Shown: in pieces, positions 27,036-45,697 of the stretch
Layout of the letters: every line of letters starts with the position of its first letter
Numbering within the stretch: position 1 is the first letter of the stretch
Position numbers and translations under genes: made by a program
Assembly (NCBI GenBank): GCA_964388185.1
Contig: CAYLYJ010000001.1
Span: forward strand, 25,873-89,872
Length of the DNA stretch: 64,000 nucleotides
Direction of reading: 5' to 3'
Source of the DNA: an uncultured Coriobacteriaceae bacterium
GTDB lineage: Bacteria; Actinomycetota; Coriobacteriia; Coriobacteriales; QAMH01
The notes under the pieces: model-generated
Told to the model about the DNA's origin: nothing
The model's database searches: none
What the model saw: the letters and a program-made list of their open reading frames with translations, nothing else

Positions 27036-27158
27036 GCAGGGGAAATGGGCATGATGAACATCGTCGAAATATGCGCGAAAAAGATGATTGCTAACGCTGG
27101 TGAAAGCGGAATGCTATCAGGTATACTGCGCGCGCATCGAGAAGGGGAGAGGCAAGGC

Positions 27159-30100: not shown

Positions 30101-31886
30101 GTACCGCCTGCCGCGTGGCTACGAGATCGACCCCGCGAGCGTGGCCGAGGTGCCGACGATCGGGACCGACGCGAGCGCGAGCGTGCTCAACGTGGTGTAC
30201 CGCCCCGCGAACTTCGAGTACGAGGTGCGCTACTACCGTGATAGCGTGAGCGACGAGGGACTGCTCGGCGTCGAGCGCGGCACGGGGCTGTATCGCAGCG
30301 AGGTGCCGTACACGGCGGGTGCGTTCTTGCCGGCGGGCTACACGGCCGAGGACGCCCAGGTCAGCGGCAACTTGCGCGTGAGCGACGTGCCGGGCAACAA
30401 CGTGCTCAACGTCGTGTACAGCAAGGACGCGCGCCTATCGTACACGGTGAACTACTACGCCGGCTCGATGGATGGCACGCCGATTGCGAGCGTGACCGGC
30501 CAGGGCACCTTCGGTGATACGATCGAGTTCGACAAGGGCGCGTTCTTGCCGGATGGCTACGCGCTGCCGGCGCAGGTGAGCGGCGCTACGACGATTGGCG
30601 CGACGCCCGAGGAGAGCGTCGTCAACGTGGTGTACCCGCTCGGCAGCTATGCCTACGAGGTGCGCTACTACCGTGATAGCGTGGACGGCGAGCTGCTGGG
30701 CACGACGCGCGGCGTGGCGACGTACCTGAGCGCGGTGCCGTACGAAATGGGCGCCTACCTGCCGGTCGGCTACTCTGCCGATGGTGCGCTCGTGGGTGCC
30801 ACGACCGTGGGTTATGACGACGCGGCCAACGTGCTCAACGTAGTGTACGCGCCCGAGCGCTACGGGTTTACGGTGAACTACTACACGGGTAGCGTGGCGA
30901 CGCGCAACCTGATCGCCAGCGAGGCCGGCGATGCGCGCGCGTACGGGTCCGTGGTGGAGCTCTCCGCCGAGGAGCTGAACGCGAAGCGTCCCGAGGGGTA
31001 TGCGGCGCTGACGGCGGGCGCGAGCGTGACGATTAGCGAGAACGAGGGCACCAACGTGGTGAACGTGGTGTTCTATCCCGACTTCGGCGAGTTCTACGCG
31101 GCGGGCGTGGATGCCGTGAGCGCGACGTACGACGGACGCGCGCACTACGTGGCGCCGCGCGCGAACGGCGTGATCGCGGGTGACGTGATCACGTATAGCT
31201 ACCGGGGCGCGGTGCAGACGCGCGTCGTGGGTTCTGGCGAGGCCGGGCTTGCAATCGACGAGATCGGCGCGGCGTTTTCGGAGGTCACGGACGGCGAGGT
31301 GCCGGTGCTCGTGACGATTACGCGTGCGGGAATCACGTCGAACGCCGTAGCCACGAGCGTGCGGATCGCGCCGGCAGTGCTCGGCGGCGATGACGAGCCG
31401 GGCGGCAACGGCGGCAACGAACAGCCGGGTACGGTGCCGGGCGGCAACGGCGGCGGCGCAGCTGGCGGCGCGGGCACGATTGGCGGCGGGCTTGCGGGCG
31501 GCGAGGTGCCGACGATCGGGCCGGCGATTGCGTCGGCGGTGCTGGGCGCGATTGCGGGCGCTGACGAGGCGGGCACGATCGGGCCCGAGCAGGCCGGCTT
31601 CGAGACGATAGCAGACGAGGAGACGCCGTTGGCGAGCTTCCCCGTGACGAATCCGAATGGACCGCATCAGATTGGATACTTGCTGTTCCTGTTGGGTACG
31701 CTGTGCGTGATCGCGATGATCGTGCTGATGGTGATTCGCCGTCGCTACGACAAGCGTATCGCGACGCTGAGCGCCGGCGAGACCGTGCTGGACCGCTACT
31801 ACGCACGGAGGCTGACGTGGGGCGTGCTTGCGACGTGCGGCGCGGCGATCGTGCTGTACGTGCTGTGGAGCGTGCTGCTGATTTGA
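27159..31886 (+). CDS. Membrane-anchored surface repeat protein (1,575 aa): signal peptide, DUF11-like and 11 MucBP-like repeats, Gly-rich tract, two C-terminal TM helices
   Basis: ATG at 27159 lies 6 nt after GGGGAGAGG (27144-27152). The N-terminus MKKQASYSMALRRVLCCVLSFALVFSLSGTSAWA/SE looks like a signal peptide; the track start at 27045 adds 38 non-signal residues. DUF11/conserved-repeat-like segments are present (PGNVVEYEFTITNTGTADLDSIEV). Eleven tandem ~75-90-aa repeats begin [YFW]-x-[IV]-x-Y-[YW] and end N-V-x-x-V-V-Y (about 28573-31075). After an MBG-like SATYDGRAHYV segment and a Gly-rich tract come the helices IGYLLFLLGTLCVIAMIVLMVI-RRRYDKR and LTWGVLATCGAAIVLYVLWSVLLI. Stop at 31884-31886. 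Confidence 0.85.
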   Translation: MKKQASYSMALRRVLCCVLSFALVFSLSGTSAWASELANEVSEQDVTGTSGIQSHSKSTNVTDVPDPLSHPDPQSPSETLDGSAESEANGTSDATDEGDATEDEDSDYDDRYMFVNSRVEKAAGNEHADVAEVGDTIVYTVMVCGLGDDFESATVSDTLGVWNGEKVSSYGSDPAYVEFEGRHVVSAQDVASESLENRVSVTGYEPAFAWVSTAIPAAPVPVADYTVDLAGTYAPERNVIDYDLTITNTGTLDLSDLTLSTTLAINDAEIDASELLSYPSDMGGLPESIDVAVGETLTLHPRVVIPYDYFEAEQQPVVALDVIVGNPASMGQTASARCVTNAYVELVRDWRVDVATHLYDALGNELTGENPAVPGNVVEYEFTITNTGTADLDSIEVTSLTDRLVPAKAWETSSLMPSESVSYVGRYVVTDDDVAVKEDGSMGTIYAEARVSVDGVESVHGSEAYKVANEYGYTIRYWLDEGFDNDEDAKPELLDEVSGAAAFGSVIELAGGMEPGEFGYLCPEGYKGDYEALVVGSDEASNVLDVTYSRGEYGWRVKYYADSVAADNLIDVRESTALLGERVELSVNELNAALPDGYMALGPEASQAITVGLDEAANEMTVVYERDSFDYTINYYVDDTEGAPVATLQGSATFGDTVTVGQGTEQGELNYALPAGYVALVEAQTLTVGSDEAANVIDVVYATKRSDLSFTIAYYGGVMGADGTVTAGELLDEVTVAGVGTLGETVTVGAELLNLALPADGRYLPMGDDESASVLIEADESKNRLEVVYVPASFEYTVSYYVDSVGEYNLVGEESGSAPFGSRVTPDSELLNRYLPALGYDAVVANEDDYSILITTDVASNHLNVVYTRAKYDYAVNYYADAVAPENLLGSFTGSASWGRPLVVTNTSVNRYVPDGYASLEGTRSITISEDEGLNVINIVYGKRTDLPYTVNYYVDSVDGELLGSVAGTGTFGEPIPYDAEYRLPRGYEIDPASVAEVPTIGTDASASVLNVVYRPANFEYEVRYYRDSVSDEGLLGVERGTGLYRSEVPYTAGAFLPAGYTAEDAQVSGNLRVSDVPGNNVLNVVYSKDARLSYTVNYYAGSMDGTPIASVTGQGTFGDTIEFDKGAFLPDGYALPAQVSGATTIGATPEESVVNVVYPLGSYAYEVRYYRDSVDGELLGTTRGVATYLSAVPYEMGAYLPVGYSADGALVGATTVGYDDAANVLNVVYAPERYGFTVNYYTGSVATRNLIASEAGDARAYGSVVELSAEELNAKRPEGYAALTAGASVTISENEGTNVVNVVFYPDFGEFYAAGVDAVSATYDGRAHYVAPRANGVIAGDVITYSYRGAVQTRVVGSGEAGLAIDEIGAAFSEVTDGEVPVLVTITRAGITSNAVATSVRIAPAVLGGDDEPGGNGGNEQPGTVPGGNGGGAAGGAGTIGGGLAGGEVPTIGPAIASAVLGAIAGADEAGTIGPEQAGFETIADEETPLASFPVTNPNGPHQIGYLLFLLGTLCVIAMIVLMVIRRRYDKRIATLSAGETVLDRYYARRLTWGVLATCGAAIVLYVLWSVLLI
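27294..27366 (+). repeat. Two degenerate REP-like sequences embedded in coding DNA of the 27159 gene
   Basis: The sequences are gtgacaggaacgtcaggcatccagtcac (27294-27321) and gtgacagatgtgcctgaccctctgtcac (27339-27366). Both keep the GTGACAG...TCAC / GTGACAG..CCTGACC.CTGTCAC framework of the island REP. They translate as DVTGTSGIQSH and NVTDVPDPLSH, compared with VTGVRPLSH for an intact REP. Confidence 0.5.
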
Positions 31887-32000: not shown

Positions 32001-32025
32001 GTGACAGGGGTCAGGCCCCTGTCAC
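32001..32025 (+). repeat. REP-like 25-nt palindromic hairpin element (also a plausible intrinsic terminator for the 27159 gene)
   Basis: GTGACAGGGG-TCAGG-CCCCTGTCAC read directly. It is followed immediately by GTTTTGTTTT, and it is the only copy with a clear T-tract. Confidence 0.9.
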
Positions 32026-32058
32026 GTTTTGTTTTGGGTCGCGGGGGCCGGCGGGAAT

Positions 32059-32083
32059 GTGTCAGGGGTCAGGCCCCTGTCAC
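32059..32083 (+). repeat. REP-like palindromic element (1 mismatch)
   Basis: GTGTCAGGGG-TCAGG-CCCCTGTCAC; the left arm has A>T. Confidence 0.85.
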
Positions 32084-32247
32084 ATTCGGGAGGTGCCGGT
32101 CAGGGGTGTAAAGCATGGCTGCTAAGTGGCTGGTCAGAGGGTCACGAGGCGCGGATTTTGGGTGTGTGGATGTATAGCAAATCGGGTGCTATCTCCGCAG
32201 GTCAGAGGCGTATAGCACGGCGATTTTCGAGGATGTGGGGGAGAGAT

Positions 32248-32272
32248 GTGACAGGGGCCAGGCCCCTGTCAC
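32248..32272. repeat. REP-like palindromic element (loop variant)
   Basis: GTGACAGGGG-CCAGG-CCCCTGTCAC; perfect 10-bp arms with loop CCAGG. Confidence 0.9.
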
Positions 32273-32391
32273 ATGGGGCGGCTTCGTCCGCAACCTGCTC
32301 GGGCGGAAGCCGGATTTCGCCCGGAAGAAAACCGGCGATTCCACGATTCCCGTTCGGCGAAACTGTCAGATCCGCTTGCTACGATTGCCCG

Positions 32392-32814
32392 ATGAACGGC
32401 GAGCGCGACATACGGGCCGAGAGGCGAGGACAGGCTTGCGGGAGGGTGATCATCCCGCCGGACGTGAACCTGTGGCCCCACGAGCTCAGGACCGCCGACG
32501 CGCTGGCGAGGGCGGGGCACGTGGTCGAGTTCGTGCGCAAGAACGACACGCCGCACGAAAAGACGGCGGATGCTCTTGTAGACGGCGTCCTGTGGGAGTT
32601 CAAGGCGCCGAGGTCGAGCCATCTGAGCGCCGTCGAGCGCAACCTGAAGAAGGGGCGTTGGCAATCAGAACGCATTGTATTTGACGGCAGGCGCATGAAG
32701 CGGCTGCCTGATTACGCAATTGAGCGAGAAGTTCGCACAAGAGCATATAGGATTCCGCATATCAGGAAGCTGCTTTACGTAAATAAGCAAGGGCAAATCA
32801 TTGACATAAAATGA
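32392..32814 (+). CDS. Small basic protein with a PD-(D/E)xK-like nuclease motif (CdiA-CT/toxin-domain-like), 140 aa
   Basis: ATG at 32392. The upstream 121 codons of track ORF 32029..32814 run through three REPs and are rejected. The sequence ...HELRTADALARAGHVVEFVRKNDTPHEKTADALVDGVLWEFKAP...GRWQSERIVFDG... carries a D-x(n)-E-x-K core (D..DGVLWEFK). From memory it resembles stand-alone CdiA-CT tRNase-like toxin domains. A TACGAT hexamer 6 nt before the ATG is conserved with the copy at 41180-41185, which suggests a possible leaderless mRNA. Confidence 0.55.
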   Translation: MNGERDIRAERRGQACGRVIIPPDVNLWPHELRTADALARAGHVVEFVRKNDTPHEKTADALVDGVLWEFKAPRSSHLSAVERNLKKGRWQSERIVFDGRRMKRLPDYAIEREVRTRAYRIPHIRKLLYVNKQGQIIDIK

Positions 32815-32898: not shown

Positions 32899-32942
32899 GT
32901 GACAGGGGTCAGGGAATGTGACAGGGGTCAGGCCCCTGTCAC
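32899..32942 (+). repeat. Half-REP plus full REP
   Basis: Half site GTGACAGGGGTCAGGG (32899-32914), then GTGACAGGGG-TCAGG-CCCCTGTCAC (32918-32942). Confidence 0.9.
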
Positions 32943-33054: not shown

Positions 33055-33079
33055 GTGACAGGGGCCTGCTCCCTGTCAC
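33055..33079 (-). repeat. REP-like palindromic element (variant)
   Basis: GTGACAGGGG-CCTGC-TCCCTGTCAC. Confidence 0.8.
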
Positions 33080-33923: not shown

Positions 33924-33948
33924 GTGACAGGGGCCTGACCCCTGTCAC
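33924..33948 (-). repeat. REP-like 25-nt palindromic hairpin element
   Basis: GTGACAGGGG-CCTGA-CCCCTGTCAC read directly; 22 nt from the stop of the 33971 gene. Confidence 0.9.
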
Positions 33949-33970: not shown

Positions 33971-34624
33971 TTAGGGCAGGTCTAGTCCATTACTTTCTGC
34001 AACCTGTTTGATAACGAGCAATTTGTCTTCGGGAAGCTCTGCAAGATGGATTCGCAAGGCTTCCTGCTCCTGACAATTCTGTTTAATGAACCTTGGGAGT
34101 TCTCGTACGGCTTCTATGTCTTTAGGACGCTTTGTCTCTGGCCGCCTATTCGGGTTAATAAAAAGCTTGTGCGCGATATAAGATGCGGGGGTTGGGACTA
34201 TAAGGTGGTATCCTCGAACATCGATATTCATCGGGCAAAGCATATCCATATTGTCTAGGCTTTCAGCAGATATCCCTGTAAGAGGCAGTTCGTAAATCCC
34301 TTTTCCTTTGAAGGAGCTCAATAGGAATTCAACTTCTATGCCTTCTTTGAAGAATGAGCTTCCTGCACCAGGGTTTTCATAGAAGATGAATCCACTCTCG
34401 CGCAACGCCCAGCGCAGGTTTTCTGCCCCGTCTATTTCCAGAAAAGGGTTTATGTAGTACACGTCTATGTCATGTGTTCTGATATTGGGCAAAAAGTTAT
34501 CTTCAAAATAGTTCGCATAAAGGTACTCGGCCCAACTGCCGATAACCATGATATTTCTCAGGAATCCCGATTTATCGAGAACATCGATGAGATCCCAGAA
34601 AATGTCTTCGCGCGGTGAGTTCAT
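33971..34624 (-). CDS. Nucleotidyltransferase-fold protein (AbiEii/MNT-like toxin candidate), 217 aa
   Basis: Minimal NTase signature: VIGSWAEY...THDIDVYY (G-S ... D-x-D). The start MNSPRED at 34624 overlaps the upstream stop as ATGA (AAATGAAC), indicating translational coupling. The region is visibly AT-richer than its flanks. Confidence 0.55.
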   Translation of the reverse strand: MNSPREDIFWDLIDVLDKSGFLRNIMVIGSWAEYLYANYFEDNFLPNIRTHDIDVYYINPFLEIDGAENLRWALRESGFIFYENPGAGSSFFKEGIEVEFLLSSFKGKGIYELPLTGISAESLDNMDMLCPMNIDVRGYHLIVPTPASYIAHKLFINPNRRPETKRPKDIEAVRELPRFIKQNCQEQEALRIHLAELPEDKLLVIKQVAESNGLDLP

Positions 34625-34947
34625 TTGTGTCTCAGGGCCTTCTCGATGAAACATTGCTCTTGCTTGAGTCGCTTTAGCGTAAGCTCAAGCTGCTTTCGGT
34701 GCTCGACTTGCTGTCTAAGGCTAGATTCGACCTGTGCAGCGCGCCCGACGTAGTCGGTTACAACACGATTGCCGACGCGATGCTTGAGGTAGCAATATCT
34801 GTGATTGCTCCGCGTCTTGATTGCAACGCTGCCTTTCGGCAGAGAGGCAATCTCGGATTGGTAGGCTTCTTGTGCTCGGATGTTCCGGTCGAGCTCCTCA
34901 CGAAGTGTGTCTTTTATAATGTTAGATTCAGCCAACTGTTGCCCCAC
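34621..34947 (-). CDS. 108-aa coiled-coil/basic protein, putative cognate partner of the NTase
   Basis: GTG start at 34947. The product contains KTRSNHRYCYLKHRVGNRVVTDYVGR and a heptad-like C-terminus. It has a 4-nt ATGA overlap with the NTase gene. A perfect TATAAT lies on the minus strand at 34985-34980, upstream. Confidence 0.5.
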   Translation of the reverse strand: MGQQLAESNIIKDTLREELDRNIRAQEAYQSEIASLPKGSVAIKTRSNHRYCYLKHRVGNRVVTDYVGRAAQVESSLRQQVEHRKQLELTLKRLKQEQCFIEKALRHK

Positions 34948-35023: not shown

Positions 35024-35048
35024 GTGACAGGGGCCTGACCCCTGTCAC
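35024..35048 (-). repeat. REP-like 25-nt palindromic hairpin element
   Basis: GTGACAGGGG-CCTGA-CCCCTGTCAC read directly. Confidence 0.9.
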
Positions 35049-35050
35049 GC

Positions 35051-35800
35051 TTAGCAGCGCTGGATGATGCCCCTGCCTATGCCAGTCATTCGCTCTATCT
35101 GGCGTATTGATAGCCCGCATGCCTTGAGCTTGCAGATCGACGTGTCACGGAAGCGCTTGTCCTTCGTCAAAAGCAGCTCCCTCCACTCCGGGCCAAGCTC
35201 GTGCTCGGCTATCCGCAAGGCCCTGCCGTTGCTTGGCTTTGCGGGTTGCCGGGGTTTTGTCTCGATCTCGATGTGGGCGTCAGTCGCCATTGCGTGAAAC
35301 GCCTGGAAGGCCGCCAGGTTGTCAAACATGCCGCTCACGAGAGTGATATCGCATATGTTGGGCTGGCCCGTGTACTCCTGGTAGCTGCTCCACGCGTAGT
35401 CGAGCGACTCGCAAAGACCGCCCTCGATCGGGTTTCGGTGTATGTAGCGCACGACCGTGAGCAGCTGCTCGTCGCTCTCTATGCCCTGGCTGCCGAACCG
35501 CCCTTGGAAAAGGTGCCCCGTGTGCCGGTGGCATTTGTTGAAATAGCTCGCGTAGGTTGACTGAAGCGTGCGCATGAACGATGAGATGGCCGTGATCGGG
35601 GCTTGTAGTAGCAGATGGACGTGGTTATCCATGAGAACCCACGCGAGGACCGTAACGTGAAGCGAGTCCGAGAAGCGGGCGATCAGCTCTAGGAACTCGA
35701 GGCGGTCGTCGTTGTCTTCGAAGATAAACTGGCGTCCCACACCGCGGTTGAACACATGATAGACGCCGCTTGTGCATTCAGATCGCATGATACGGGACAT
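35051..35800 (-). CDS. rayT: IS200/IS605-family Y1 HUH transposase of the REP-associated (RAYT) type with C-terminal HTH, 249 aa
   Basis: HUH motif in MDNHVHLLL; catalytic-Tyr motif in VVRYIHRNP; overall COG1943-like sequence (YHVFNRG...FEDDDDR...GHLFQGRF). The C-terminal ACGLSIRQIERMTGIGRGIIQRC looks like a DnaA-domain-IV-like HTH. A strong SD (AGGAAGGAGGACC) precedes the ATG at 35800. Confidence 0.85.
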   Translation of the reverse strand: MSRIMRSECTSGVYHVFNRGVGRQFIFEDNDDRLEFLELIARFSDSLHVTVLAWVLMDNHVHLLLQAPITAISSFMRTLQSTYASYFNKCHRHTGHLFQGRFGSQGIESDEQLLTVVRYIHRNPIEGGLCESLDYAWSSYQEYTGQPNICDITLVSGMFDNLAAFQAFHAMATDAHIEIETKPRQPAKPSNGRALRIAEHELGPEWRELLLTKDKRFRDTSICKLKACGLSIRQIERMTGIGRGIIQRC

Positions 35801-35821
35801 GGTCCTCCTTCCTGGACGTAT

Positions 35822-35846
35822 GTGACAGGGGCCTGACCCCTGTCAC
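35822..35846 (-). repeat. REP-like 25-nt palindromic hairpin element
   Basis: GTGACAGGGG-CCTGA-CCCCTGTCAC read directly. Confidence 0.9.
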
Positions 35847-35980: not shown

Positions 35981-36005
35981 GTGACAGGGGCCTGACCCCT
36001 GTCAC
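35981..36005 (-). repeat. REP-like 25-nt palindromic hairpin element
   Basis: GTGACAGGGG-CCTGA-CCCCTGTCAC with AAT/ATT flanks extending the palindrome. Confidence 0.9.
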
Positions 36006-36293: not shown

Positions 36294-37553
36294 TTAGGGA
36301 GCGAGCGCGGCAAGCGGAACAACGAGAACGCCGTCTTCGCGCTGGTAGGCAGCCGACGTCGCGGTAAGTACCATCAGGAACGAAGGGGCTCCCTCAGATT
36401 CCCGATCCACTCTCTCCGCAAGCTTTCTCAGGTTCTTTGCCGCCTGGTCAATTTGCGCGTTCCCCATCTTGACTTCAACGGGAGCCCATCGTCCGTCTTC
36501 TAGCACGATTACCGCATCCGCCTCGAGCCCGGTCTTATCACGGTAGTGGCACACACGACCGCCCATCGCATCTGCGTAGACGCGCAGATCGCGTATACAT
36601 AGGGACTCGAATAATAGGCCGAAGGTGTTGAAATCACTCATGAGTGTAGTCGGAGATGCCCCGAGTATCGCGATCGCAACCGACGGATCGCAGAAGTGCC
36701 GTGTCGGGCTGGTCCGAACGGCGGTCTTCGACCTTAACCTCGGATTCCAGGCCTCCAGATCATCGATGACGAACGCACGAGCGAGGGCATCGACATAGTC
36801 GGAAACAGTAACCATAGATGGTGGCTCGCCTTGCATGTCGGCCCGGATGGTGGAAAGGGGTGCCTCGGTCGATATATTTCTCGCATATGAGCGCATGATG
36901 GCCCTGAGCCAGGTCGAGTTGCGCCTCGTACCCTCGAGCTCATCTATGTCAGCATCCATCATCTCGTCAACGTAGTTTTTCGCCTGGGCAAGAGCAATCT
37001 TCGAATCATGCTCGATTACCGCCTGAGGCCATCCGCCTCGGCAAAGGGCATACGCGATTCTGTCTATGTCGAATTCAACGAGGGACTCAATTTCGCTGTT
37101 GCTATCAAATAGTTTTCTGAGCGAGACTGCGCCGCTGGACTCTCCCGACTCATACAGGGACATTGTTCGCATGCGGAGGCGAGCGATGCGTCCCACGCCC
37201 GAGTGGACTGGCCGCTTCTTGGGTGTTGCGGAGCCCGTGAGGATATAGGCGCCCTTTTCCCTCGTCATGTCCACGTCGAATCTAACCGCATCCCACAGCT
37301 GCGGCGCCATTTGCCATTCGTCTATGAGTCGCGGCTTCGGTCCCTCTAGAATTGCCGATGGCTTAATATCGGCAAGGGCAAGAAGTGATTGACTCGTGTC
37401 GGGATCCTGGAGAAGGACCGTGCTTGCCGCCCTCTGACGGCCGGTTTCCGTCTTGCCGCACCATTTGGGTCCGGTTATCTGAACGGCGCCCGACGTGCGG
37501 AGCATCCAGTCGAGCGTTTGGTCTGCAACACGCGGGATATACTTCCAACTCAT
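36294..37553 (-). CDS. AAA+ ATPase of the COG1373 type (AAA_14-like N-domain plus DUF4143-like C-domain), 419 aa
   Basis: Start MSWKYIPRV at 37553, after AAGGAA. Walker A is GPKWCGKT and Walker B-like is RLIDEWQ. The C-terminal GLEADAVIVLEDGRWAPVEVKMG carries a D...E-V-K motif. Closest paralog is the 39430 gene. Confidence 0.85.
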   Translation of the reverse strand: MSWKYIPRVADQTLDWMLRTSGAVQITGPKWCGKTETGRQRAASTVLLQDPDTSQSLLALADIKPSAILEGPKPRLIDEWQMAPQLWDAVRFDVDMTREKGAYILTGSATPKKRPVHSGVGRIARLRMRTMSLYESGESSGAVSLRKLFDSNSEIESLVEFDIDRIAYALCRGGWPQAVIEHDSKIALAQAKNYVDEMMDADIDELEGTRRNSTWLRAIMRSYARNISTEAPLSTIRADMQGEPPSMVTVSDYVDALARAFVIDDLEAWNPRLRSKTAVRTSPTRHFCDPSVAIAILGASPTTLMSDFNTFGLLFESLCIRDLRVYADAMGGRVCHYRDKTGLEADAVIVLEDGRWAPVEVKMGNAQIDQAAKNLRKLAERVDRESEGAPSFLMVLTATSAAYQREDGVLVVPLAALAP

Positions 37554-37609
37554 CTGCGTTCCTTTGCTCCGAGCTTTATTACCTTGCATTTTAGCAGACA
37601 ACTTTGCTA

Positions 37610-37665: not shown

Positions 37666-37819
37666 GTGACAGGGGCCTGACCCCTGTCACATTTTGAGGG
37701 CCTGTGAGTGCGCAATGGGGTCTCTATGAGGCGTCGGCTGCTTGCGGGCTTCTGAGGGCGTTCTGGGGCTCCTACAGCCATGTTGCGACGCAACGTGACA
37801 GGGGCCTGGCACCTGTCAC
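37666..37819 (-). repeat. Composite element E1: REP - 104-nt conserved spacer - REP
   Basis: REP 37666-37690 is perfect; REP 37795-37819 is the variant GTGACAGGGGCCTGGCACCTGTCAC. The spacer aligns almost base for base with those at 39305-39408 and 40862-40968, and contains TTCTGAGGGC twice. Confidence 0.85.
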
Positions 37820-37821: not shown

Positions 37822-39135
37822 TTAGAGGAAGGCGGCCATGTAGATGGGAAGGTACGTGATGGCGCCTTGTTCCTCGACATTTTGCGTATGCAAAACCACC
37901 GCGCCTTCGAGCTTATAGTTCTTCACTTCGAGCAGCGCATCGAGCGCGGCGTGCTTGTGGGAGGATGCCCCCGATTTGACCTCGATGGGCACAACGAGGG
38001 GGTCTTGAGCCTCGTCAACGAGGAAATCAACCTCGCCGACGCCGCGCTTTTTGTAGTAGTAGATGCGCTCGTGTCCGTGCGCGCGCAGCTCTTGCGCGAC
38101 GGCGTTCTCGAAGACGCTGCTGAGGTTCATGTCCGGGGCCTTCGCCAGGAGCCTCTCGACGTCTGTGGCCGGTAACGTGGAGAACAGGAGCCCAACATCA
38201 GACAAGTAGAGCTTGAAGTGGGAGGCCTCTTCGGAAAGCCCAAGCGGGAACGTGGCTTGTGTGCAACGTCGAGCGGGGATGACGACGCCGGCGTCCTCGA
38301 GCCAGTCGAAGTCCGAGGCAAGGCGCTCGAAACGTCCACCCTCGGTCGCGGCGCTCACGTTGAAGCGGCGGTTTTCCTTGTTCAGTTGCGATGGGATGGC
38401 ATCGTAGATCGTCTTCACCTGCCGTGCACGGGGCTTGCCTTCGATGTAGCGCGTGATGTCGGCACGATAGGTGCTTAGGATGCCCCTTTGTCGGGCGCGA
38501 ACACGCTGCGTGTCCTGCGTGTCGAGCAAAAGCTGCACGGGCTCGGGCATGCCGCCAATGAGGAGGTAGCGCATCCAGAGGTCGAGAAGCTTTTCGTGGA
38601 TGAAGTCGGGGACGGGCGCGCGCGACGCGAAGCATTCGCGTGAGGTGTTCCAGAGGGTCGCATCGAGTCCATGCGCCCAGCAGAACTCCTCGAAGTCGAG
38701 GGGGAACATCTCGAGGATGTCGATGGTTCCCACAGGGAGCGAGCGGAAATCATACGCCTCGATGCCGAGCATGGAGCCCGAATAGATGACGTCGAAGCGG
38801 CTGTCTTGCGCGAGGTAGCGCATCCACGTTATGGCGTCTGCGCAGCGCTGCACCTCGTCGAAGAAGAGGAGCGTCTTTCCTTCGGAGAGGGGTTGGGACG
38901 AGAGGGACGTTATGCGCAGGAGGAGGTCATCAAGATCCTGTGCGGCGCCGATTACCTCGATGGCACGTGGTTGCTCGACGAAGTCGATTTTCACGGTCGA
39001 GTCGTAATGCTCGCGACCGAATGCCTCGATGCTATAGGTTTTGCCGATTTGCCGCGCACCTGTCACGAGGAGGCCCTGGGTGGTTTTTGTAGTGCGCCAT
39101 GCCTCCATTTCTGCTTCGATTTTTCGCTTGAGCAT
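37822..39135 (-). CDS. AAA+ ATPase of the COG1373 type (AAA_14-like plus DUF4143-like), 437 aa
   Basis: Start MLKRKIEAEMEAW at 39135, after AAGGGAG. The 54 upstream codons in the track ORF run through repeats. Walker A is GARQIGKT and Walker B is LLFFDEVQ. The C-terminal GVGEVDFLV...VVPIEVKSG carries a D...E-V-K motif. Stop TAA lies 2 nt from the REP at 37819. Confidence 0.85.
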   Translation of the reverse strand: MLKRKIEAEMEAWRTTKTTQGLLVTGARQIGKTYSIEAFGREHYDSTVKIDFVEQPRAIEVIGAAQDLDDLLLRITSLSSQPLSEGKTLLFFDEVQRCADAITWMRYLAQDSRFDVIYSGSMLGIEAYDFRSLPVGTIDILEMFPLDFEEFCWAHGLDATLWNTSRECFASRAPVPDFIHEKLLDLWMRYLLIGGMPEPVQLLLDTQDTQRVRARQRGILSTYRADITRYIEGKPRARQVKTIYDAIPSQLNKENRRFNVSAATEGGRFERLASDFDWLEDAGVVIPARRCTQATFPLGLSEEASHFKLYLSDVGLLFSTLPATDVERLLAKAPDMNLSSVFENAVAQELRAHGHERIYYYKKRGVGEVDFLVDEAQDPLVVPIEVKSGASSHKHAALDALLEVKNYKLEGAVVLHTQNVEEQGAITYLPIYMAAFL

Positions 39136-39175
39136 GGCGTGCTCCCTTGGTTGGATATCGGGGTTTCTACTGGGG

Positions 39176-39203
39176 AATATAGGCTGGATTAGCAAAAATG
39201 CAA
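39176..39203 (-). promoter_or_regulatory. Sigma-70-like promoter candidate for the 39135 ATPase gene
   Basis: The minus strand reads TTGCAT (39203-39198), a 16-nt spacer, then TATATT (39181-39176). The -35 hexamer is part of the tandem repeat unit. Confidence 0.35.
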
Positions 39204-39263
39204 ACTGAAAACCAGTGATTTTGGCAAAAATGCAAAGTGAAAAGAGGCGATTTTGGCAAAAAT
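39189..39263. repeat. 2.4 copies of a 30-32-bp tandem repeat upstream of the ATPase gene, truncated by a half-REP
   Basis: ttagcaaaaatgcaaactgaaaaccagtga / ttttggcaaaaatgcaaagtgaaaagaggcga / ttttggcaaaaat, then the half-REP. Confidence 0.85.
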
Positions 39264-39433
39264 GTGACAGGGACCAAACGTGACAGGGACCTGGCACCTG
39301 TCACGTTCTGAGGGCTTGTGAGTGCGCAATGGGGTCTCTGGAGGCGTCGGCTGCTTGCAGGGTTTCTGAGGGCGTTCTGGAGCTTCTACGGCCATGTCGC
39401 GACGCGATGTGACAGGGGCCTGACCCCTGTCAC
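39264..39433 (-). repeat. Composite element E2: half-REP, REP - 104-nt conserved spacer - REP
   Basis: Half site GTGACAGGGACC (39264-39275), variant REP 39280-39304 and perfect REP 39409-39433. The TGA stop of the 39430 ATPase gene (39430-39432, minus strand) is the TGA of GTGACAGG. Confidence 0.85.
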
Positions 39434-40734
39434 GTTGTTAGCGTGCGAATCGGGATGACGTAGATCCCATCTTCCACGACGCGCACGTATTCTCCAATGC
39501 CAACTAGCACCGCCATGAATTCGGGAGCGCGCGTCCTCGCCCCTTGCTGTTCGCACAGCTTGTTTCTCAGACGCGTAAGGTTCTTCACCGCTTCGTTGAC
39601 TTTTGACTCGCTCGTCTTTATTTCGATTGCCGCCCATCGTCCATCGACGAGTTCGATGATCGCATCGACCTCGAGACCGGAATCATCGCGGTAGTAGCGT
39701 ATCGGAACGGGTCGAGCTAGTTCCATTGCCCGCGTGTATACGGCAAGGTCACGCATGCAGAGGTTCTCAAAGACGAGTCCAAACGTCTGCCAATCGGCAT
39801 AAAGGGATTCCGAAGACATGCCAAGGGCGGCAATGGCAAGCGACGGGTCAGCTAGATAGCGACGTGGCTTGACCTGCAGCCTCTTCTTCGATCGCGCCGC
39901 CGGTTCCCAGCCTGGGATTTCCGTCGACAGATAGATGCGATTGAGAAAACTAAGATACTCGCCAATCTGCCTATCACTCAGTTGTTCGCCTGTTGCCCCC
40001 AAGGCGTCTTCGCGAATGGTCCTGTAAGTTGCGGATTGTCCCAGGTTGCGAGCGATTGACGCAATGATACGCTCGGTGACAGATGAATCGAGGTCATTGT
40101 CAGGCGCACTCTCATAGCAAACCGCGGCAAGATATTCCCTCGCGATGGTCTGGGCGTTTGTCACTGGCATGTTAATTGCCTCTGGCCATCCGCCACGGCA
40201 AACAATGTCCACAAGCTCTTTTGTGTCCGACGGGGTTTTCTCTGTAGCTGGAGGACCATCAAAAAGCCCTGACAGGGAAACCGAACCCGTGGAATCTTGA
40301 GATTCCGAGAGCGTCATGGGAGCCATCCTGATACGCCCTATACGGCCTGCGCCGCTATGACGCTTGTCTGCTTGCGGTTGTCCCTTTCCATGCTGCGGCG
40401 GAGTCGATGATCCTGTAAGGATCCAGCCGCCGTGCAAGCCTCGTTCCTCGTCTGCGGCATGACGAACCAGATTCCATATAGAGGGGACGCGTTGCCACTC
40501 GTCTATGATATGCGGCTTTTCCCCAACCAACATGAGGGAAGGATCGTCCAGCGCAAGTGCGTATTCCTTGTCTACGTAGCTGATTGACGCCCCGTGTTGT
40601 CTGGCGGTCCACGTCTTGCCGCACCATTTGGTCCCCTCTATTTCGACGGCGCCGAAGATATCGAGGTAGCGCTCGAGCTGCGCGTCGACGATTCGCGGAA
40701 TGTACCCTTTTGGAGCTATAGGGGAGGGTTGCAT
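39430..40734 (-). CDS. AAA+ ATPase of the COG1373 type (AAA_14-like plus DUF4143-like), 434 aa
   Basis: Start MQPSPIAPKGYIPRIVD at 40734, 7 nt after AGGAG. Walker A is GTKWCGKT and Walker B-like is HIIDEWQ. The C-terminus reads GLEVDAIIELVDGRWAAIEIKTS. Confidence 0.85.
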   Translation of the reverse strand: MQPSPIAPKGYIPRIVDAQLERYLDIFGAVEIEGTKWCGKTWTARQHGASISYVDKEYALALDDPSLMLVGEKPHIIDEWQRVPSIWNLVRHAADEERGLHGGWILTGSSTPPQHGKGQPQADKRHSGAGRIGRIRMAPMTLSESQDSTGSVSLSGLFDGPPATEKTPSDTKELVDIVCRGGWPEAINMPVTNAQTIAREYLAAVCYESAPDNDLDSSVTERIIASIARNLGQSATYRTIREDALGATGEQLSDRQIGEYLSFLNRIYLSTEIPGWEPAARSKKRLQVKPRRYLADPSLAIAALGMSSESLYADWQTFGLVFENLCMRDLAVYTRAMELARPVPIRYYRDDSGLEVDAIIELVDGRWAAIEIKTSESKVNEAVKNLTRLRNKLCEQQGARTRAPEFMAVLVGIGEYVRVVEDGIYVIPIRTLTT

Positions 40735-40758
40735 AGCAAGGCTCCTACGTTGGAAAAT

Positions 40759-40818
40759 ACCAAAATCCGAGTCATATTTTACCAAAATCCGAATTCATTT
40801 TCGCAAAAATCCGAGAAT
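40759..40818. repeat. 2.7 copies of a 22-bp tandem repeat upstream of the ATPase gene, truncated by a half-REP
   Basis: accaaaatccgagtcatatttt / accaaaatccgaattcattttc / gcaaaaatccgagaat, then the half-REP. On the gene strand the units end in TGGTAAAAT and TGGTATTTT, which are extended -10-like. Confidence 0.85.
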
Positions 40819-40993
40819 GTGACAGGGACCGACGATGTGACAGGGGCCTGGCACCTGTCACGTTCTGAGGGCCTGTGAGTGCGCAATGGGGTCTCTCTGT
40901 GAGGCGCCGGCTGCTTGCAGGGCTTCTGAGGGCGTTCTGGAGTTTCTACGGCCATGTTGCGACGCGATGTGACAGGGGCCTGACCCTTGTCAC
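40819..40993 (-). repeat. Composite element E3: half-REP, REP - 107-nt conserved spacer - REP
   Basis: Half site GTGACAGGGACC (40819-40830), variant REP 40837-40861 and REP 40969-40993 (CCCTTGTCAC arm). Confidence 0.85.
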
Positions 40994-40998
40994 AATTT

Positions 40999-41049
40999 TT
41001 AGCAGACACTTTGCAAGTTGGACTGTTTTGAGTTTACGAGTTGGACGAT
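40999..41049. repeat. Orphan copy of the 5' region of the 37553 ATPase gene
   Basis: ttagcagacactttgcaagttggactgttttgagtttacgagttggacgat matches 37591-37665 (same leader plus the 23-bp repeat, one unit fewer). Here it has no gene attached, and a REP sits on each side. Confidence 0.8.
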
Positions 41050-41073
41050 GTGACAGGGGCTGACCCCTGTCAC
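41050..41073 (-). repeat. REP-like palindromic element (24 nt, 1-nt deletion in loop)
   Basis: GTGACAGGGG-CTGA-CCCCTGTCAC. Confidence 0.85.
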
Positions 41074-41191
41074 GTAGGCGGGGTTTGGTCGGAATATGCT
41101 TGGGCGGAAGTCGGATTTCGCCCGGTAAAACCCGGTGAATCCGCGGTTTCCATTCGGCGAAACTGTTAAATTTGCTTGTTACGATAGGCCG

Positions 41192-41473
41192 ATGAACGAC
41201 GAGTGCAACATATGGGCCGGCGGACGAGCGAACGTGCATGTGGTCAAGGCGGTGGGGTCTGGCGATCCCGTTTGGCGAGGCGAAGCTACGCAAATGAACG
41301 GCGTGAAGGAGGTAACCAGGCAAATACAAGAGGCGTTTGCCATGCTTGAGATTTGCTCTGCCAAACTTGGTGTGTATAATACATTGTATGGGACTGGTCC
41401 TGTGGACCCTGGTCCTACCTGCGGCGGGGATATTCCCCGCCATTCCTCTTTCATGAGGTGTCCTCTTGCCTGA
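41192..41473 (+). CDS. Hypothetical 93-aa ORF sharing its leader and first codons with the 32392 gene (possible remnant)
   Basis: Bases 41097-41220 align with 32297-32420, including TACGAT, 6 nt and the ATG at the same offset; the sequences then diverge. The stop overlaps the TTG start of the next ORF (cTTGCCTGA). I recognise no domain. Confidence 0.3.
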   Translation: MNDECNIWAGGRANVHVVKAVGSGDPVWRGEATQMNGVKEVTRQIQEAFAMLEICSAKLGVYNTLYGTGPVDPGPTCGGDIPRHSSFMRCPLA

Positions 41474-42497: not shown

Positions 42498-42522
42498 GTG
42501 ACAGGGGCCTGACCCCTGTCAC
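42498..42522 (-). repeat. REP-like 25-nt palindromic hairpin element
   Basis: Perfect copy with CGAT/ATCG flanks. Confidence 0.9.
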
Positions 42523-42615: not shown

Positions 42616-42640
42616 GTGACAGGGGCCTGACCCCTGTCAC
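42616..42640 (-). repeat. REP-like 25-nt palindromic hairpin element
   Basis: Perfect copy with AAAT/ATTT flanks. Confidence 0.9.
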
Positions 42641-43954: not shown

Positions 43955-43979
43955 GTGACAGGGGTCAGGCCCCTGTCAC
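43955..43979 (+). repeat. REP-like 25-nt palindromic hairpin element
   Basis: GTGACAGGGG-TCAGG-CCCCTGTCAC. Confidence 0.9.
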
Positions 43980-44618: not shown

Positions 44619-44643
44619 GTGACAGGGGCCTGACCCCTGTCAC
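44619..44643 (-). repeat. REP-like 25-nt palindromic hairpin element
   Basis: Perfect copy, 7 nt after the AbrB-like stop. Confidence 0.9.
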
Positions 44644-44718: not shown

Positions 44719-44743
44719 GTGACAGGGACCTGACCCCTGACAC
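44719..44743 (-). repeat. REP variant
   Basis: GTGACAGGGACCTGACCCCTGACAC; part of a ~53-bp direct repeat (44692-44744 matches 44823-44875). Confidence 0.8.
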
Positions 44744-44794: not shown

Positions 44795-44819
44795 GTGACA
44801 GGGGCCTGACCCCTGACAC
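44795..44819 (-). repeat. REP variant
   Basis: GTGACAGGGGCCTGACCCCTGACAC; shares the right-arm T>A change with its two neighbours. Confidence 0.8.
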
Positions 44820-44849: not shown

Positions 44850-44874
44850 GTGACAGGGACCTGACCCCTGACAC
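44850..44874 (-). repeat. REP variant
   Basis: GTGACAGGGACCTGACCCCTGACAC; second copy of the 53-bp direct repeat. Confidence 0.8.
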
Positions 44875-45672: not shown

Positions 45673-45697
45673 GTGACAGGGGTCAGGCCCCTGTCAC
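45673..45697 (+). repeat. REP-like 25-nt palindromic hairpin element
   Basis: GTGACAGGGG-TCAGG-CCCCTGTCAC. Confidence 0.9.

What the first reader, a model, noticed from the sequence alone, without database searches (positions are those of the whole stretch)
35024..35846. Candidate REPtron in a high-GC Gram-positive background
The 249-aa protein carries the HUH motif (HVH in MDNHVHLLL) and the Y1 catalytic-tyrosine motif (YIHRNP), typical of IS200-like REP-associated tyrosine transposases, plus a C-terminal HTH. Perfect copies of the abundant palindrome flank the gene, 2 nt from the stop and 21 nt from the ATG. RAYT/REP systems are best characterised in Gammaproteobacteria. In those REPtrons the flanking REPs are usually inverted. 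Here both flanking copies have the same loop orientation (CCTGA on the plus strand), which may reflect a different geometry.
Basis: partly seen in the sequence, partly recalled or inferred. Interest (0 to 1): 0.7.

Follow-up and report, generated by a model that had tools for sequence, protein, structure and literature searches.

The report
REP-type transposase gene with amplified palindrome
A gut actinobacterium carries a domesticated-type single-strand DNA transposase gene bracketed by a short perfect palindrome that is copied at least 31 times in this 64-kb window; this is a further example of a known kind of bacterial repeat system, in a lineage where no such system turned up in the papers I searched.

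Summary
ORF 35051-35800(-) encodes a 249-aa HUH/Y1 protein (HVH; YIHRNP). Perfect copies of GTGACAGGGGCCTGACCCCTGTCAC lie 2 nt after the stop and 21 nt before the ATG, both with CCTGA on the + strand. The window holds 30 copies at 3 or fewer mismatches plus one indel copy, against 0 expected.

The protein belongs to the REP-associated class (Y---NP). Its best structural match is E. coli TnpAREP. It is closest to the long 'TIRYT' / subclass 2.1 type, not to classical RAYTs or IS200.

Adjacency alone proves little, because every gene in the 32-46 kb island is bracketed by the palindrome. The link comes from comparison. Of 80 relatives, 69 carry inverted flanking repeats, and most show the published GGGGWSAS motif that this palindrome also contains (GGGGTCAG). 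The 62%-identical relatives carry their own palindrome variant.

Classical REPtron features are absent: there is no GTAG tag and the flanks are direct, not inverted. In this window the direct geometry matches a general rule that palindrome orientation follows the direction of the neighbouring gene.

Verdict: new member of a known kind, of moderate interest. Genome-wide copy numbers and biochemical activity were not tested.

The parts
35051..35800 (-). Gene for a 249-aa HUH/Y1 tyrosine transposase of the TnpA_REP class (TIRYT / subclass 2.1-like). Catalytic core is about residues 1-145 (H60-V-H62, Y119-IHR-NP, W137-SS). A helical C-terminal domain spans about residues 190-249.
   Evidence: ORF and translation. 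Pfam Y1_Tnp 3.7e-15. NCBIfam REP_Tyr_transpos 69.2 bits. Invariant H60, H62, Y119, N123, P124 and W137-S138-S139 in 32 homologues. AF2 pLDDT 88.6. Foldseek best hit 4er8_A, 1.2e-8. dN/dS 0.20 against the 97%-identical copy in L087.
35024..35048 (+). Perfect palindrome copy 2 nt downstream of the stop codon. Stem 10 bp, loop CCTGA on the + strand. On the gene-sense strand it reads GTGACAGGGGTCAGGCCCCTGTCAC.
35822..35846 (+). Perfect palindrome copy 21 nt upstream of the ATG, in the same orientation as the downstream copy. GGGGTCAG lies on the gene-sense strand, the polarity seen in upstream repeats of relatives.
35981..36005 (+). Perfect copy, 134 nt further upstream of the gene
   Evidence: also present in L087
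36266..36290 (+). Perfect copy, 3 nt after the stop of the DUF4143 ATPase gene 36294..37601(-)
32001..32025 (-). Perfect copy, 114 nt after the stop of giant gene 27045..31886(+)
32059..32083 (-). Copy with 1 mismatch; direct doublet with 32001
32248..32272 (-). Copy with 1 mismatch (loop CCTGG)
32918..32942 (-). Perfect copy, 103 nt after the stop of the CdiA_C-domain ORF 32029..32814(+), followed by a half-copy
33055..33079 (+). Copy with 2 mismatches
33924..33948 (+). Perfect copy, 22 nt after the stop of the NTP_transf_8 gene 33971..34654(-)
37666..37690 (+). Perfect copy; left arm of a composite unit (hairpin, 104 nt spacer, hairpin) spanning 37666-37819
37795..37819 (+). Copy with 2 mismatches; right arm of the composite unit, 2 nt after the stop of ATPase gene 37822..39297(-)
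39280..39304 (+). Copy with 3 mismatches; left arm of composite unit 39280-39433
39409..39433 (+). Perfect copy overlapping the stop of ATPase gene 39430..40785(-)
40837..40861 (+). Copy with 2 mismatches; left arm of composite unit 40837-40993
40969..40993 (+). Copy with 1 mismatch; right arm of the composite unit
41050..41073 (+). Copy with a 1-nt loop deletion (GTGACAGGGGCTGACCCCTGTCAC), missed by the mismatch-only search
42498..42522 (+). Perfect copy
42616..42640 (+). Perfect copy
43955..43979 (-). Perfect copy, 91 nt after the stop of ATPase gene 42703..43863(+). Another strain has a 46-nt indel beside this hairpin.
44619..44643 (+). Perfect copy; first of a 4-copy array (44619-44874) that is re-ordered in another strain
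44719..44743 (+). Copy with 2 mismatches
44795..44819 (+). Copy with 1 mismatch; stem extended by 7 further complementary pairs
44850..44874 (+). Copy with 2 mismatches
45548..45572 (+). Perfect copy inside a longer palindrome, with about 14 further complementary pairs on each side
45673..45697 (-). Perfect copy; forms an inverted (REPIN-like) doublet with 45726, with a 28-nt spacer
45726..45750 (+). Perfect copy; second arm of the inverted doublet
58741..58765 (-). Perfect copy lying in frame in the long ORF 45952..61659(+), read as VTGVRPLSH
58939..58963 (-). Copy with 1 mismatch, also in frame in the same ORF (VTGVRPLSH)
61766..61790 (+). Perfect copy, 106 nt after the stop of ORF 45952..61659; forms an inverted doublet with 61808, with a 17-nt spacer
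61808..61832 (-). Copy with 1 mismatch; second arm of the inverted doublet

Best explanation
The 823-bp interval is a REP/RAYT-type system of the 'TIRYT / TnpA_REP subclass 2.1' kind. It comprises a chromosomal gene for a single-strand-DNA HUH/Y1 tyrosine transposase with an extra C-terminal helical (probably HTH) domain. The gene is bracketed by this lineage's version of the repeat that flanks members of the family.

In most relatives that repeat is an imperfect hairpin: a stem such as GTGACA...TGTCAC around a loop that begins GGGG[AT][CG]. It occurs once on each side of the gene, in inverted orientation. In this lineage the loop has become self-complementary (GGGG-TCAGG-CCCC). The result is a perfect 25-29-nt palindrome (A-Y-GTGACAGGGGCCTGACCCCTGTCAC-R-T), which has been copied to at least 31 places in this window as singles, direct doublets, inverted doublets and 155-nt composite units.

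Proposed mechanism (inferred, not shown). The protein binds the hairpin when the DNA is single-stranded, for example on the lagging-strand template. It cuts at the foot of the hairpin using Tyr119 and the metal held by H60/H62. It then moves or copies hairpin units into new single-stranded sites, as shown in vitro for E. coli TnpAREP and IS608 TnpA.

The copies that persist sit mainly just after stop codons. In this window they are oriented with the neighbouring gene, so the transcript carries the GGGG-UCAGG-CCCC form. This suggests secondary selection as an RNA 3'-end element, or insertion that is biased by orientation.

The gene itself is probably immobile here. Its two flanking copies are direct rather than inverted, and the same locus is found in a second strain.

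What is shown: the sequence features, the family membership of the protein, purifying selection on the gene, and conservation of the repeat architecture across the family. What is inferred: cognate binding and cleavage, current activity, and any RNA role.
For: Protein class.
- Pfam Y1_Tnp.
- NCBIfam REP_Tyr_transpos matches the window protein and all 32 aligned homologues.
- HuH, Y---NP and WSS are invariant.
- The best sequence match to solved structures is 4er8, and it is also the best fold match, covering all 165 residues with TMt 0.73.
- BLASTP against the published RAYT/TIRYT set places the protein with the TIRYTs (sequences from PMC3733652 Additional file 5).
- Class 2 is defined by Y---NP. 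Subclass 2.1 is defined by a C-terminal HTH and TIRs with GGGG[AT][CG]A[CG] (PMC6006769).

The repeat is cognate to the gene.
- The 62%-identical relatives P0002 and P0003 are flanked by a different but related palindrome, GTGTCAGGGGGTCAGACCCCCTGACAC.
- 69 of 80 more distant relatives in Coriobacteriia and Clostridia have inverted flanking repeats. In 62 of these, GGGGWS lies on the sense strand of the upstream copy only. The window's upstream copy has the same polarity.
- The foot GTGACA/TGTCAC is shared with the repeats in Olsenella (L004) and Gordonibacter (L005).

Dispersal recurs in the family. 9 of 68 relatives show solo or doublet copies of their own repeat more than 450 nt from the gene, for example L004 with 9 copies and L031 with 12.

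Abundance here. 30 sites against 0 expected. Further copies occur at other loci in human-gut metagenomes.

The gene is functional. dN/dS is 0.20 and 0.09.

The family is mainly chromosomal. It hits 12 of 72,556 plasmid records and 1 of 50,697 phage records.

Stem selection. The outermost pair covaries between T-A and C-G in 24 of 30 copies, with 5 T.G and 1 C.A. Other loci carry compensated feet: GAAT/ATTC, AGAT/ATCT, GGT/ACC.
Against: - There is no biochemical or population evidence for binding, cleavage or movement.
- Every gene of the island is bracketed by the palindrome, so local adjacency is uninformative by itself.
- The flanks are direct, unlike in relatives.
- There is no GTAG-like asymmetric tag. 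Apart from the loop and an invariant A at -2, the element is symmetric, so the cleavage site cannot be read from sequence.
- NCBIfam REP_Tyr_transpos scores below its curated equivalog cut-off (69.2 against 80).
- Genome-wide numbers of palindromes and of gene copies are unknown. The source genome is not in the collections and the one genome scan returned only relatives at 44% identity or less.
- Quentin et al. 2018 found no REP-like sequences near subclass 2.1 genes.
- Most metagenome contigs with the exact 25-mer hold a single copy in 2-14 kb, so the density seen in the island need not be typical.
Confidence: 0.7

Rival explanations
1. The 823-bp unit (hairpin, gene, hairpin) is itself an autonomous IS-like element, a 'TIRtron' that still transposes as a whole. 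The solo palindromes would then be its miniature non-autonomous derivatives (MITE-like).
For: Two relatives each hold two 100% identical copies of exactly the repeat-gene-repeat unit in one contig: 886 nt in L033 and 860 nt in L065. The unit ends coincide with the outer ends of the repeats. Many homologues sit on contigs of about 1 kb that end at the repeats. Same-strand (direct) hairpins are the geometry IS200/IS605 elements use (established knowledge of IS608).
Against: There is one copy in the 64-kb window. The 97%-identical gene in a second sample sits in the same locus with the same three hairpins and the same neighbouring gene. The 62% relative P0003 lies beside the same HMGL/PYC gene in 6 samples. 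The family is rare on plasmids and phages. The relatives that do duplicate have inverted ends, not direct ones. Short contigs are equally explained by assembly breaks at abundant repeats.
Confidence: 0.15
2. The palindromes are host RNA or transcription elements (3'-end stabilisers or terminators) maintained by selection, and are not moved by this protein. On this view the gene is just one of many in the island that happen to be bracketed.
For: First downstream copies lie 2-235 nt (overlapping the stop codon in one case) after stop codons. At all 11 gene ends counted in the window (my tally from the ORF coordinates and the copy orientations), the sense strand carries the TCAGG form, including the three places where gene direction switches. 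All genes of the island are bracketed. Stems are kept by compensatory changes.
Against: This does not explain why homologues in other lineages carry their own variant of the same hairpin architecture specifically at the gene. There is no T-tract, and no hairpin was called as an intrinsic terminator. Orientation exceptions occur at other loci (L110, L112, L113). 18 identical 25-mers imply recent copying rather than independent origin. An RNA role is compatible with the main explanation; only the exclusive version is a rival.
Confidence: 0.1
3. The palindromes are recombination sites that bound exchangeable gene cassettes in a variable island, in a manner analogous to integron attC sites, with the Y1 protein acting as the cassette recombinase.
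For: Nearly every gene of the 33-43 kb stretch is a single unit bounded by same-orientation hairpins. Differences between strains or contexts begin exactly at hairpin feet. The island holds toxin, antitoxin and ATPase genes typical of variable regions.
Against: No case of the same cassette in two contexts was found. Metagenome contigs may be chimeric at repeats. The three ATPase units could have arisen by ordinary tandem duplication. Copies also occur singly beside housekeeping genes such as guaA.
Confidence: 0.05

Closest known systems
TIRtrons / TIRYT genes (Di Nocera et al. 2013, PMC3733652), equal to TnpA_REP subclass 2.1 (Quentin et al. 2018, PMC6006769); for example S. maltophilia sml1152 and sml4509, Geobacter gbm2474, D. 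audaxviator dau2153
   Same: The core is a long Y1 protein with MxNHxHLL, G-x-L/F-x-G-R-F, YIxxNP and WSS, at 31-41% identity over the core. An extra C-terminal helical domain is present. The flanking repeats carry GGGGWSAS; here the motif is GGGGTCAG. In some genomes, S. maltophilia among them, the repeats are self-complementary and moderately amplified as singles, dimers or clusters.
   Different: The C-terminal domain does not align with those of the published proteobacterial TIRYTs (alignments stop at about residues 140-175), and it gives no Pfam hit in the window protein. The repeat here is a perfect short palindrome at very high local density. The gene's two copies are direct, not inverted. 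The host is a Coriobacteriia-like gut actinobacterium. Quentin et al. reported no REP-like sequences next to subclass 2.1 genes.
Classical REPtron: E. coli TnpAREP (RAYT, PDB 4ER8) with REP/BIME; Pseudomonas RAYT with REPINs
   Same: The best structural match is 4er8_A (E = 1.2e-8). Shared features are HuH and Y---NP, a short palindrome abundant in extragenic DNA often just after genes, and some inverted doublets (45673/45726 and 61766/61808) that resemble REPINs.
   Different: Identity to E. coli RAYT is only 22% (E = 6e-5). There is no GTAG tag. The flanks are not inverted. The protein is about 85 residues longer. The stem is perfect, without the bulge or mismatch seen in E. coli REPs (established knowledge; discussion).
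IS200/IS605 family (IS608, ISDra2 TnpA)
   Same: It shares the HUH/Y1 fold. The ends are hairpins. Both hairpins lie on the same strand, as in this locus. The peel-and-paste mechanism on single-stranded DNA is the working model.
   Different: The motif is Y---NP, not Y---Q. The NCBIfam IS200 model scores 29.2 against a cut-off of 55. There is no TnpB partner. The gene is apparently single-copy with a conserved location.

Membership tests
TnpA_REP / RAYT class (class 2 of Quentin et al. 2018) | HuH motif and catalytic Tyr in a Y---NP motif (IS200 has Y---Q) | tested here: met
   H60-V-H62 and Y119-IHR-N123-P124 are invariant in 32 homologues. Definition taken from PMC6006769.
TnpA_REP / RAYT class (class 2 of Quentin et al. 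2018) | Closer to RAYT than to IS200 models and structures | tested here: met
   REP_Tyr_transpos 69.2 bits against transpos_IS200 29.2 bits, although below the equivalog cut-off of 80. 4er8 is the best match by sequence profile and by fold.
TnpA_REP / RAYT class (class 2 of Quentin et al. 2018) | Low copy number per genome, vertical inheritance, rare on plasmids | tested here: inconclusive
   One copy in 64 kb. The locus is conserved in a second sample. The 62% relative is syntenic in 6 samples. Hits are rare in plasmids and phages. The whole-genome copy number is unknown, and some relatives have identical duplicates.
Subclass 2.1 / TIRYT (TIRtron) | Sequence similarity to published TIRYTs greater than to classical RAYTs | tested here: met
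   BLASTP gives TIRYTs E of 1e-28 to 1e-16 and RAYTs E of 1e-12 to 6e-5. No tree with the authors' subclass profiles was built.
Subclass 2.1 / TIRYT (TIRtron) | Additional C-terminal HTH domain (Bac_DnaA_C, HTH_23 or HTH_28-like) | tested here: inconclusive
   A five-helix domain is predicted with pLDDT of about 90. Relatives give sub-threshold HTH_23/HTH_7/HTH_28 hits and the window protein gives none. No significant PDB fold hit was found.
Subclass 2.1 / TIRYT (TIRtron) | Flanking repeats with the motif GGGG[AT][CG]A[CG] | tested here: met
   GGGGTCAG lies on the gene-sense strand of both flanking copies. A looser form of the motif (GGGG[AT][CG] or GGGAC[AG]G) is present in the upstream repeat of 62 of 69 relatives.
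Subclass 2.1 / TIRYT (TIRtron) | The two flanking repeats are in inverted orientation (TIR) | tested here: not met
   Both copies read CCTGA on the + strand. Relatives are inverted.
Classical REPtron (E. coli / Pseudomonas type) | REP carries a GTAG tetranucleotide at one end (guide and cleavage sequence) | tested here: not met
   The position table of 30 copies shows invariant A at -2, Y at -1, R at +1 and T at +2, with no GTAG or CTAC.
Classical REPtron (E. coli / Pseudomonas type) | Gene flanked by inverted REPs | tested here: not met
   Direct orientation. The rule comes from Nunvar et al. 2010.
Classical REPtron (E. coli / Pseudomonas type) | Flanking sequence is highly repeated in extragenic DNA genome-wide | tested here: inconclusive
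   At least 31 copies in 64 kb against 0 expected, plus further loci in metagenomes. The whole genome was not available.
Classical REPtron (E. coli / Pseudomonas type) | The protein binds and cleaves its REP as single-stranded DNA | not testable with these tools
   Requires purified protein and oligonucleotides.
IS200/IS605 | Y---Q motif, short core-only protein, NCBIfam/ISfinder-type TnpA | tested here: not met
   Y---NP motif; 249 aa; transpos_IS200 scores 29.2 against a cut-off of 55.
IS200/IS605 | TnpB partner and/or multiple near-identical copies | tested here: not met
   None of the 10 other island ORFs scanned (32029-43863), including both neighbours, matched a TnpB-type family, and tblastn found no second copy in this window. 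Genome-wide copy number was not tested.

The most novel reading that the evidence does not exclude
In this lineage the Y1 protein and its palindrome act as a cassette system. Any gene bounded by two same-orientation hairpins, as almost every gene of the 33-43 kb toxin/antitoxin/ATPase island is, could be lifted out and re-inserted as single-stranded DNA. The palindromes would then be the junctions at which a variable island is shuffled between strains. The strain-to-strain breakpoints that fall exactly at hairpin feet, and the loop flip at a fixed site, would be footprints of that activity.
Probability: 0.08. Interest if true: 0.75.

Novelty: new member of a known kind. Interest (0 to 1): 0.38.

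Why it matters
It extends REP/RAYT-type systems to gut Coriobacteriia-like actinobacteria. It also gives a clear case in which a subclass 2.1 (TIRYT-type) transposase gene sits among many copies of a true short palindrome derived from its own flanking repeat. The 2018 survey of the superfamily did not find REP-like sequences for that subclass.

The series of relatives runs from an imperfect hairpin present only at the gene, through a few solo copies, to a perfect palindrome at very high density. That series is a natural comparison for asking how a transposon end becomes a genome-wide repeat.

There are practical consequences. The palindrome breaks metagenome assemblies at these loci, since many homologues lie on contigs of about 1 kb. 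It also marks points of structural difference between strains.

None of this changes the general picture of such systems.

Tried and rejected
- Exact look-up of the protein in public assemblies found nothing on record. A second homology search with the neighbouring ATPase, meant to name the organism, returned no named close relative: best 96% unnamed, next 56%. The source species therefore stays unidentified.
- A search for perfect hairpins next to homologues suggested at first that most relatives lack flanking structures, as did a search for the GGGGTCAGRCCCC core. This was a method artefact. Comparing upstream with downstream flanks showed imperfect inverted repeats in 69 of 80.
- The metagenome scan for the exact 25-mer gave only 23 stretches, mostly with one copy each, and several are the same locus in different samples. 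It does not give a genome-wide count. The viral-contig scan gave 0.
- The 415-aa gene next to many of those hits was suspected to be an IS110-type, REP-targeting transposase. It has no Pfam hit and ends in a membrane-anchor-like tail, so the idea was dropped.
- Intrinsic-terminator and promoter scans around the gene called none of the palindromes. Rfam has no family for the palindrome.
- CRISPR array was considered and rejected, because spacing is irregular at 50-3000 nt and the intervals contain genes.
- Two literature searches combining RAYT with taxon names or 'Gram-positive' returned only noise.
Full report
**What is in the sequence**

ORF 35051..35800 on the minus strand encodes 249 residues. 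The sequence begins MSRIMRSEC, contains MDNHVHLLL and YIHRNP, and ends with a leucine- and arginine-rich tail. A GGAAGGAGG ribosome-binding site precedes the ATG.

The 25-mer GTGACAGGGGCCTGACCCCTGTCAC has a 10-bp stem and a 5-nt loop. It is perfect at 35024-35048, 2 nt from the stop. It is also perfect at 35822-35846, 21 nt from the ATG. Both copies have CCTGA on the plus strand.

The window has 30 distinct sites with at most three mismatches, 18 of them perfect. None occurred in 100 shuffles. One more copy has a single-base loop deletion, at 41050-41073.

**Anatomy of the repeat**

I oriented all copies by the loop and tabulated the flanks.
- Position -2 is A in 30 of 30 copies.
- Position -1 is T or C.
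- Position +1 is A or G.
- Position +2 is T in 24 of 30.

The conserved unit is therefore about 29 nt: A-Y-[25-mer]-R-T. The outermost pair covaries (T-A or C-G) in 24 copies, is T.G in 5 and C.A in 1. There is no GTAG or other asymmetric tag, so apart from the loop the element is symmetric.

Copies occur in several arrangements:
- singles;
- a direct doublet (32001/32059);
- inverted, REPIN-like doublets (45673/45726 and 61766/61808);
- three 155-nt composite units (hairpin, about 105 nt, hairpin) between diverged DUF4143 ATPase paralogues;
- some copies embedded in longer palindromes (45548, with about 14 extra pairs).

**Context**

Of the 31 copies, 27 lie in 32.0-45.8 kb. This is a lower-GC island (0.50-0.58 against 0.64-0.68 in the giant genes). 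It sits between giant surface-protein genes with Listeria-Bacteroides repeats.

The island holds an orphan CdiA_C toxin-domain ORF, a nucleotidyltransferase (NTP_transf_8) gene with a small upstream ORF, four AAA_14/DUF4143 ATPase genes and an HTH_3 gene. Almost every gene in it is bracketed by the palindrome. The fact that the transposase gene is flanked is therefore not informative on its own.

Orientation follows the neighbouring gene. At all 11 gene ends counted, the first copy after the stop codon presents the TCAGG form on the sense strand. This holds at the three places where gene direction switches (after 31886, 32814 and 43863). The tally is mine, from the ORF coordinates and the copy orientations. 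The same-orientation flanks of the transposase gene simply follow this rule.

The rule is not absolute elsewhere. L110, L112 and L113 are exceptions. L100 and L113 are the same locus with the same stem but an inverted loop.

**The protein**

- Pfam Y1_Tnp matches at 3.7e-15.
- NCBIfam REP_Tyr_transpos scores 69.2 bits (below its equivalog cut-off of 80), against 29.2 for transpos_IS200. All 32 aligned homologues hit the REP model.
- H60, H62, Y119, N123, P124 and W137-S138-S139 are invariant.
- A profile search of solved structures finds E. coli TnpAREP (4er8) first.
- An AlphaFold model with pLDDT 88.6 matches 4er8_A over all 165 residues at E = 1.2e-8. IS200, IS608 and ISDra2 TnpA score 1e-4 to 1e-5.
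- None of the 10 other island ORFs scanned (32029-43863), including both neighbours, matched a TnpB-type family.

**Which kind of REP-class protein**

Di Nocera et al. 2013 separated classical RAYTs from longer 'TIRYT' proteins. TIRYT genes are flanked by terminal inverted repeats that share the motif GGGGWSAS. Some of these repeats are self-complementary and moderately amplified, for example in S. maltophilia.

I ran BLASTP of the window protein against the sequences printed in their Additional file 5.
- TIRYTs gave 31-41% identity and E of 1e-28 to 1e-16.
- Pseudomonas and Stenotrophomonas RAYTs gave E of 1e-12 to 1e-9.
- E. coli RAYT gave 22% identity and E = 6e-5.

Quentin et al. 2018 equate TIRYT with TnpA_REP subclass 2.1. 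They define it by Y---NP plus a C-terminal HTH (Bac_DnaA_C, HTH_23 or HTH_28-like). They state that no REP-like sequences were found near subclass 2.1 genes. They also report that high-GC Actinobacteridae carried only IS200-type genes in their sample.

The window protein has a confidently predicted five-helix C-terminal domain. Its HTH nature is only weakly supported, however. Relatives give sub-threshold Pfam hits, the window protein gives none, and no significant fold match was found. The domain also does not align with the C-termini of the published TIRYTs.

**Comparative evidence that links gene and palindrome**

(a) A 97%-identical gene in another sample (L087) sits in the same locus with the same three hairpins and the same neighbouring gene.

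(b) The 62%-identical relatives P0002 and P0003 are flanked by a related but distinct palindrome, GTGTCAGGGGGTCAGACCCCCTGACAC, present as inverted singles or doublets.

(c) I examined 80 loci from species-representative genomes at 32-44% identity. These are Eggerthellaceae, Gordonibacter, Olsenella, Collinsella, Enorma, and also Clostridia. Of these, 69 have inverted repeats in the 400 nt on either side. In 62 of the 69, the upstream copy alone carries GGGG[AT][CG] or GGGAC[AG]G on the gene-sense strand.

The usual form of the repeat is a short stem, often GTGACA/TGTCAC or TGTCA/TGACA, around a 12-15-nt loop that begins with the G-rich motif. The window palindrome reads GTGACA-GGGGTCAG-GCCCC-TGTCAC on the sense strand. 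That is the same stem and the same motif, with the loop made self-complementary.

(d) Dispersal of the repeat recurs in the family. 9 of 68 relatives have solo or doublet copies of their own repeat away from the gene within 10 kb. Olsenella L004 has 9 copies, L031 has 12, and L001 has 5 in 5 kb.

(e) In two relatives the whole repeat-gene-repeat unit is present twice at 100% identity. Some members therefore still move as units.

**State of the gene**

dN/dS is 0.20 against L087 and 0.09 between P0002 and P0003. The family is nearly absent from plasmids (12 of 72,556 records, and the two full-length hits are in replicons of 0.9 and 2.6 Mb) and from phages (1 of 50,697). P0003 is beside the same carboxylase gene in six samples. 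This is the pattern of a maintained, mostly vertically inherited gene.

**Distribution of the palindrome outside the window**

A scan of metagenome contigs found the exact 25-mer in 23 stretches, those labelled being human-gut assemblies. Two match this window at 92-97% identity (L095, L101). Others are different loci, usually with a single copy in 2-14 kb. These copies often lie 5-11 nt after a stop codon and have extended feet that differ between loci yet stay complementary: GAAT/ATTC, AGAT/ATCT, GGT/ACC, TAT/ATA.

Where two samples can be compared, differences start at the hairpin. Examples are a 46-nt indel at 43955, a re-ordered array at 44.6-44.9 kb, different sequence beyond 32918 in L101, and three different downstream contexts after one 415-aa gene. 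Assembly chimeras at repeats could produce some of these differences.

**Interpretation**

The best-supported reading is a REP/RAYT-type system of the TIRYT / subclass 2.1 kind, in which the family's flanking repeat has evolved into a perfect palindrome and been amplified. Binding and cleavage of the hairpin as single-stranded DNA by Tyr119 and the HuH metal site, and copying to new sites, are inferred by analogy with E. coli TnpAREP and IS608. Nothing here shows activity.

The positions just after stop codons and the transcription-linked orientation suggest a secondary RNA role or an orientation-biased insertion step. The hairpins have no T-tract and were not called as intrinsic terminators.

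Three rivals remain:
- the whole unit is an autonomous IS-like element (0.15);
- the palindromes are purely host RNA elements and the adjacency is coincidental (0.10);
- the palindromes bound exchangeable cassettes (0.05).

**Novelty and score**

Both components and their association belong to a described kind, including amplified self-complementary repeats next to TIRYT genes. The new points are the host lineage, the clear palindromic REP-like form for a subclass said to lack such sequences, the direct flanks, and the very high local density. I rate it a new member of a known kind, with interest 0.38.

The main gaps are the whole-genome counts and any biochemical test.

Noticed in passing
window 58741-58765 and 58939-58963 (ORF 45952..61659 +): Two palindrome copies lie in frame inside the 5235-aa open reading frame, each translated as VTGVRPLSH. 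A signal-peptide-like start (MKLALGMPSVILALCLATFGVGA) follows near 59.17 kb. The long ORF may therefore be two genes joined by an open stretch, or a surface-protein gene carrying intragenic REPs.
   Followed up: partly
L100:5591-5621 versus L113:1281-1311: This is the same locus in two samples, with nearly identical flanks and the identical stem TATGTGACAGGGG...CCCCTGTCACATA. The 5-nt loop is inverted (TCAGG versus CCTGA). The orientation of a copy can therefore flip in place, for example by arm-to-arm recombination or template switching.
   Followed up: partly
L033:9914-10799 and 6571-7456; L065:3870-4729 and 10804-11663: Two 100% identical copies of the complete repeat-gene-repeat unit (886 and 860 nt) occur within one contig in an Eggerthellaceae MAG and in a Syntrophomonas MAG. 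The unit ends fall exactly at the outer ends of the repeats. Some family members therefore behave as insertion sequences.
   Followed up: yes
L088:1-54 and 1440-1493: A 54-nt segment, apparently the 3' end of the adjacent minus-strand gene (read by eye as coaD-like, not checked) plus its downstream sequence, is present on both sides of the block hairpin-transposase gene-hairpin-67-aa ORF-hairpin in the 62%-identical relative. It could be a long duplication at an insertion, a rearrangement or an assembly effect.
   Followed up: no
window 37666-37819, 39280-39433, 40837-40993: Three 155-nt composite units (hairpin, about 105 nt conserved spacer, hairpin; 73-95% identical) separate DUF4143 ATPase paralogues whose coding sequences are much more diverged. 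The intergenic unit may be mobile, or it may be a conserved control region.
   Followed up: partly
window 41390-41438 (+): An Rfam DUF3800-XI RNA motif (43.9 bits, gathering score 37.8) lies inside the unsupported ORF 40946..41443(-), next to a degenerate palindrome copy.
   Followed up: no
window 15-31886 and 45952-61659: These are giant open reading frames (9006, 1613 and 5235 aa) with Listeria-Bacteroides repeat and DUF7507 domains. An orphan CdiA_C toxin-domain ORF follows at 32029-32814. The layout resembles a polymorphic-toxin or adhesin locus with downstream orphan modules.
   Followed up: partly
window 43955 and 44619-44874 versus L095: A second strain (92-96% identical) has a 46-nt insertion directly beside the hairpin at 43955. 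It also has a different order and number of hairpin-plus-spacer units in the 44.6-44.9 kb array.
   Followed up: partly
L081:10830-10921: The end of this metagenome contig is the reverse complement of the 3' end of the transposase gene, just beyond an inverted hairpin doublet. This is most likely a fold-back assembly artefact caused by the palindromes.
   Followed up: no
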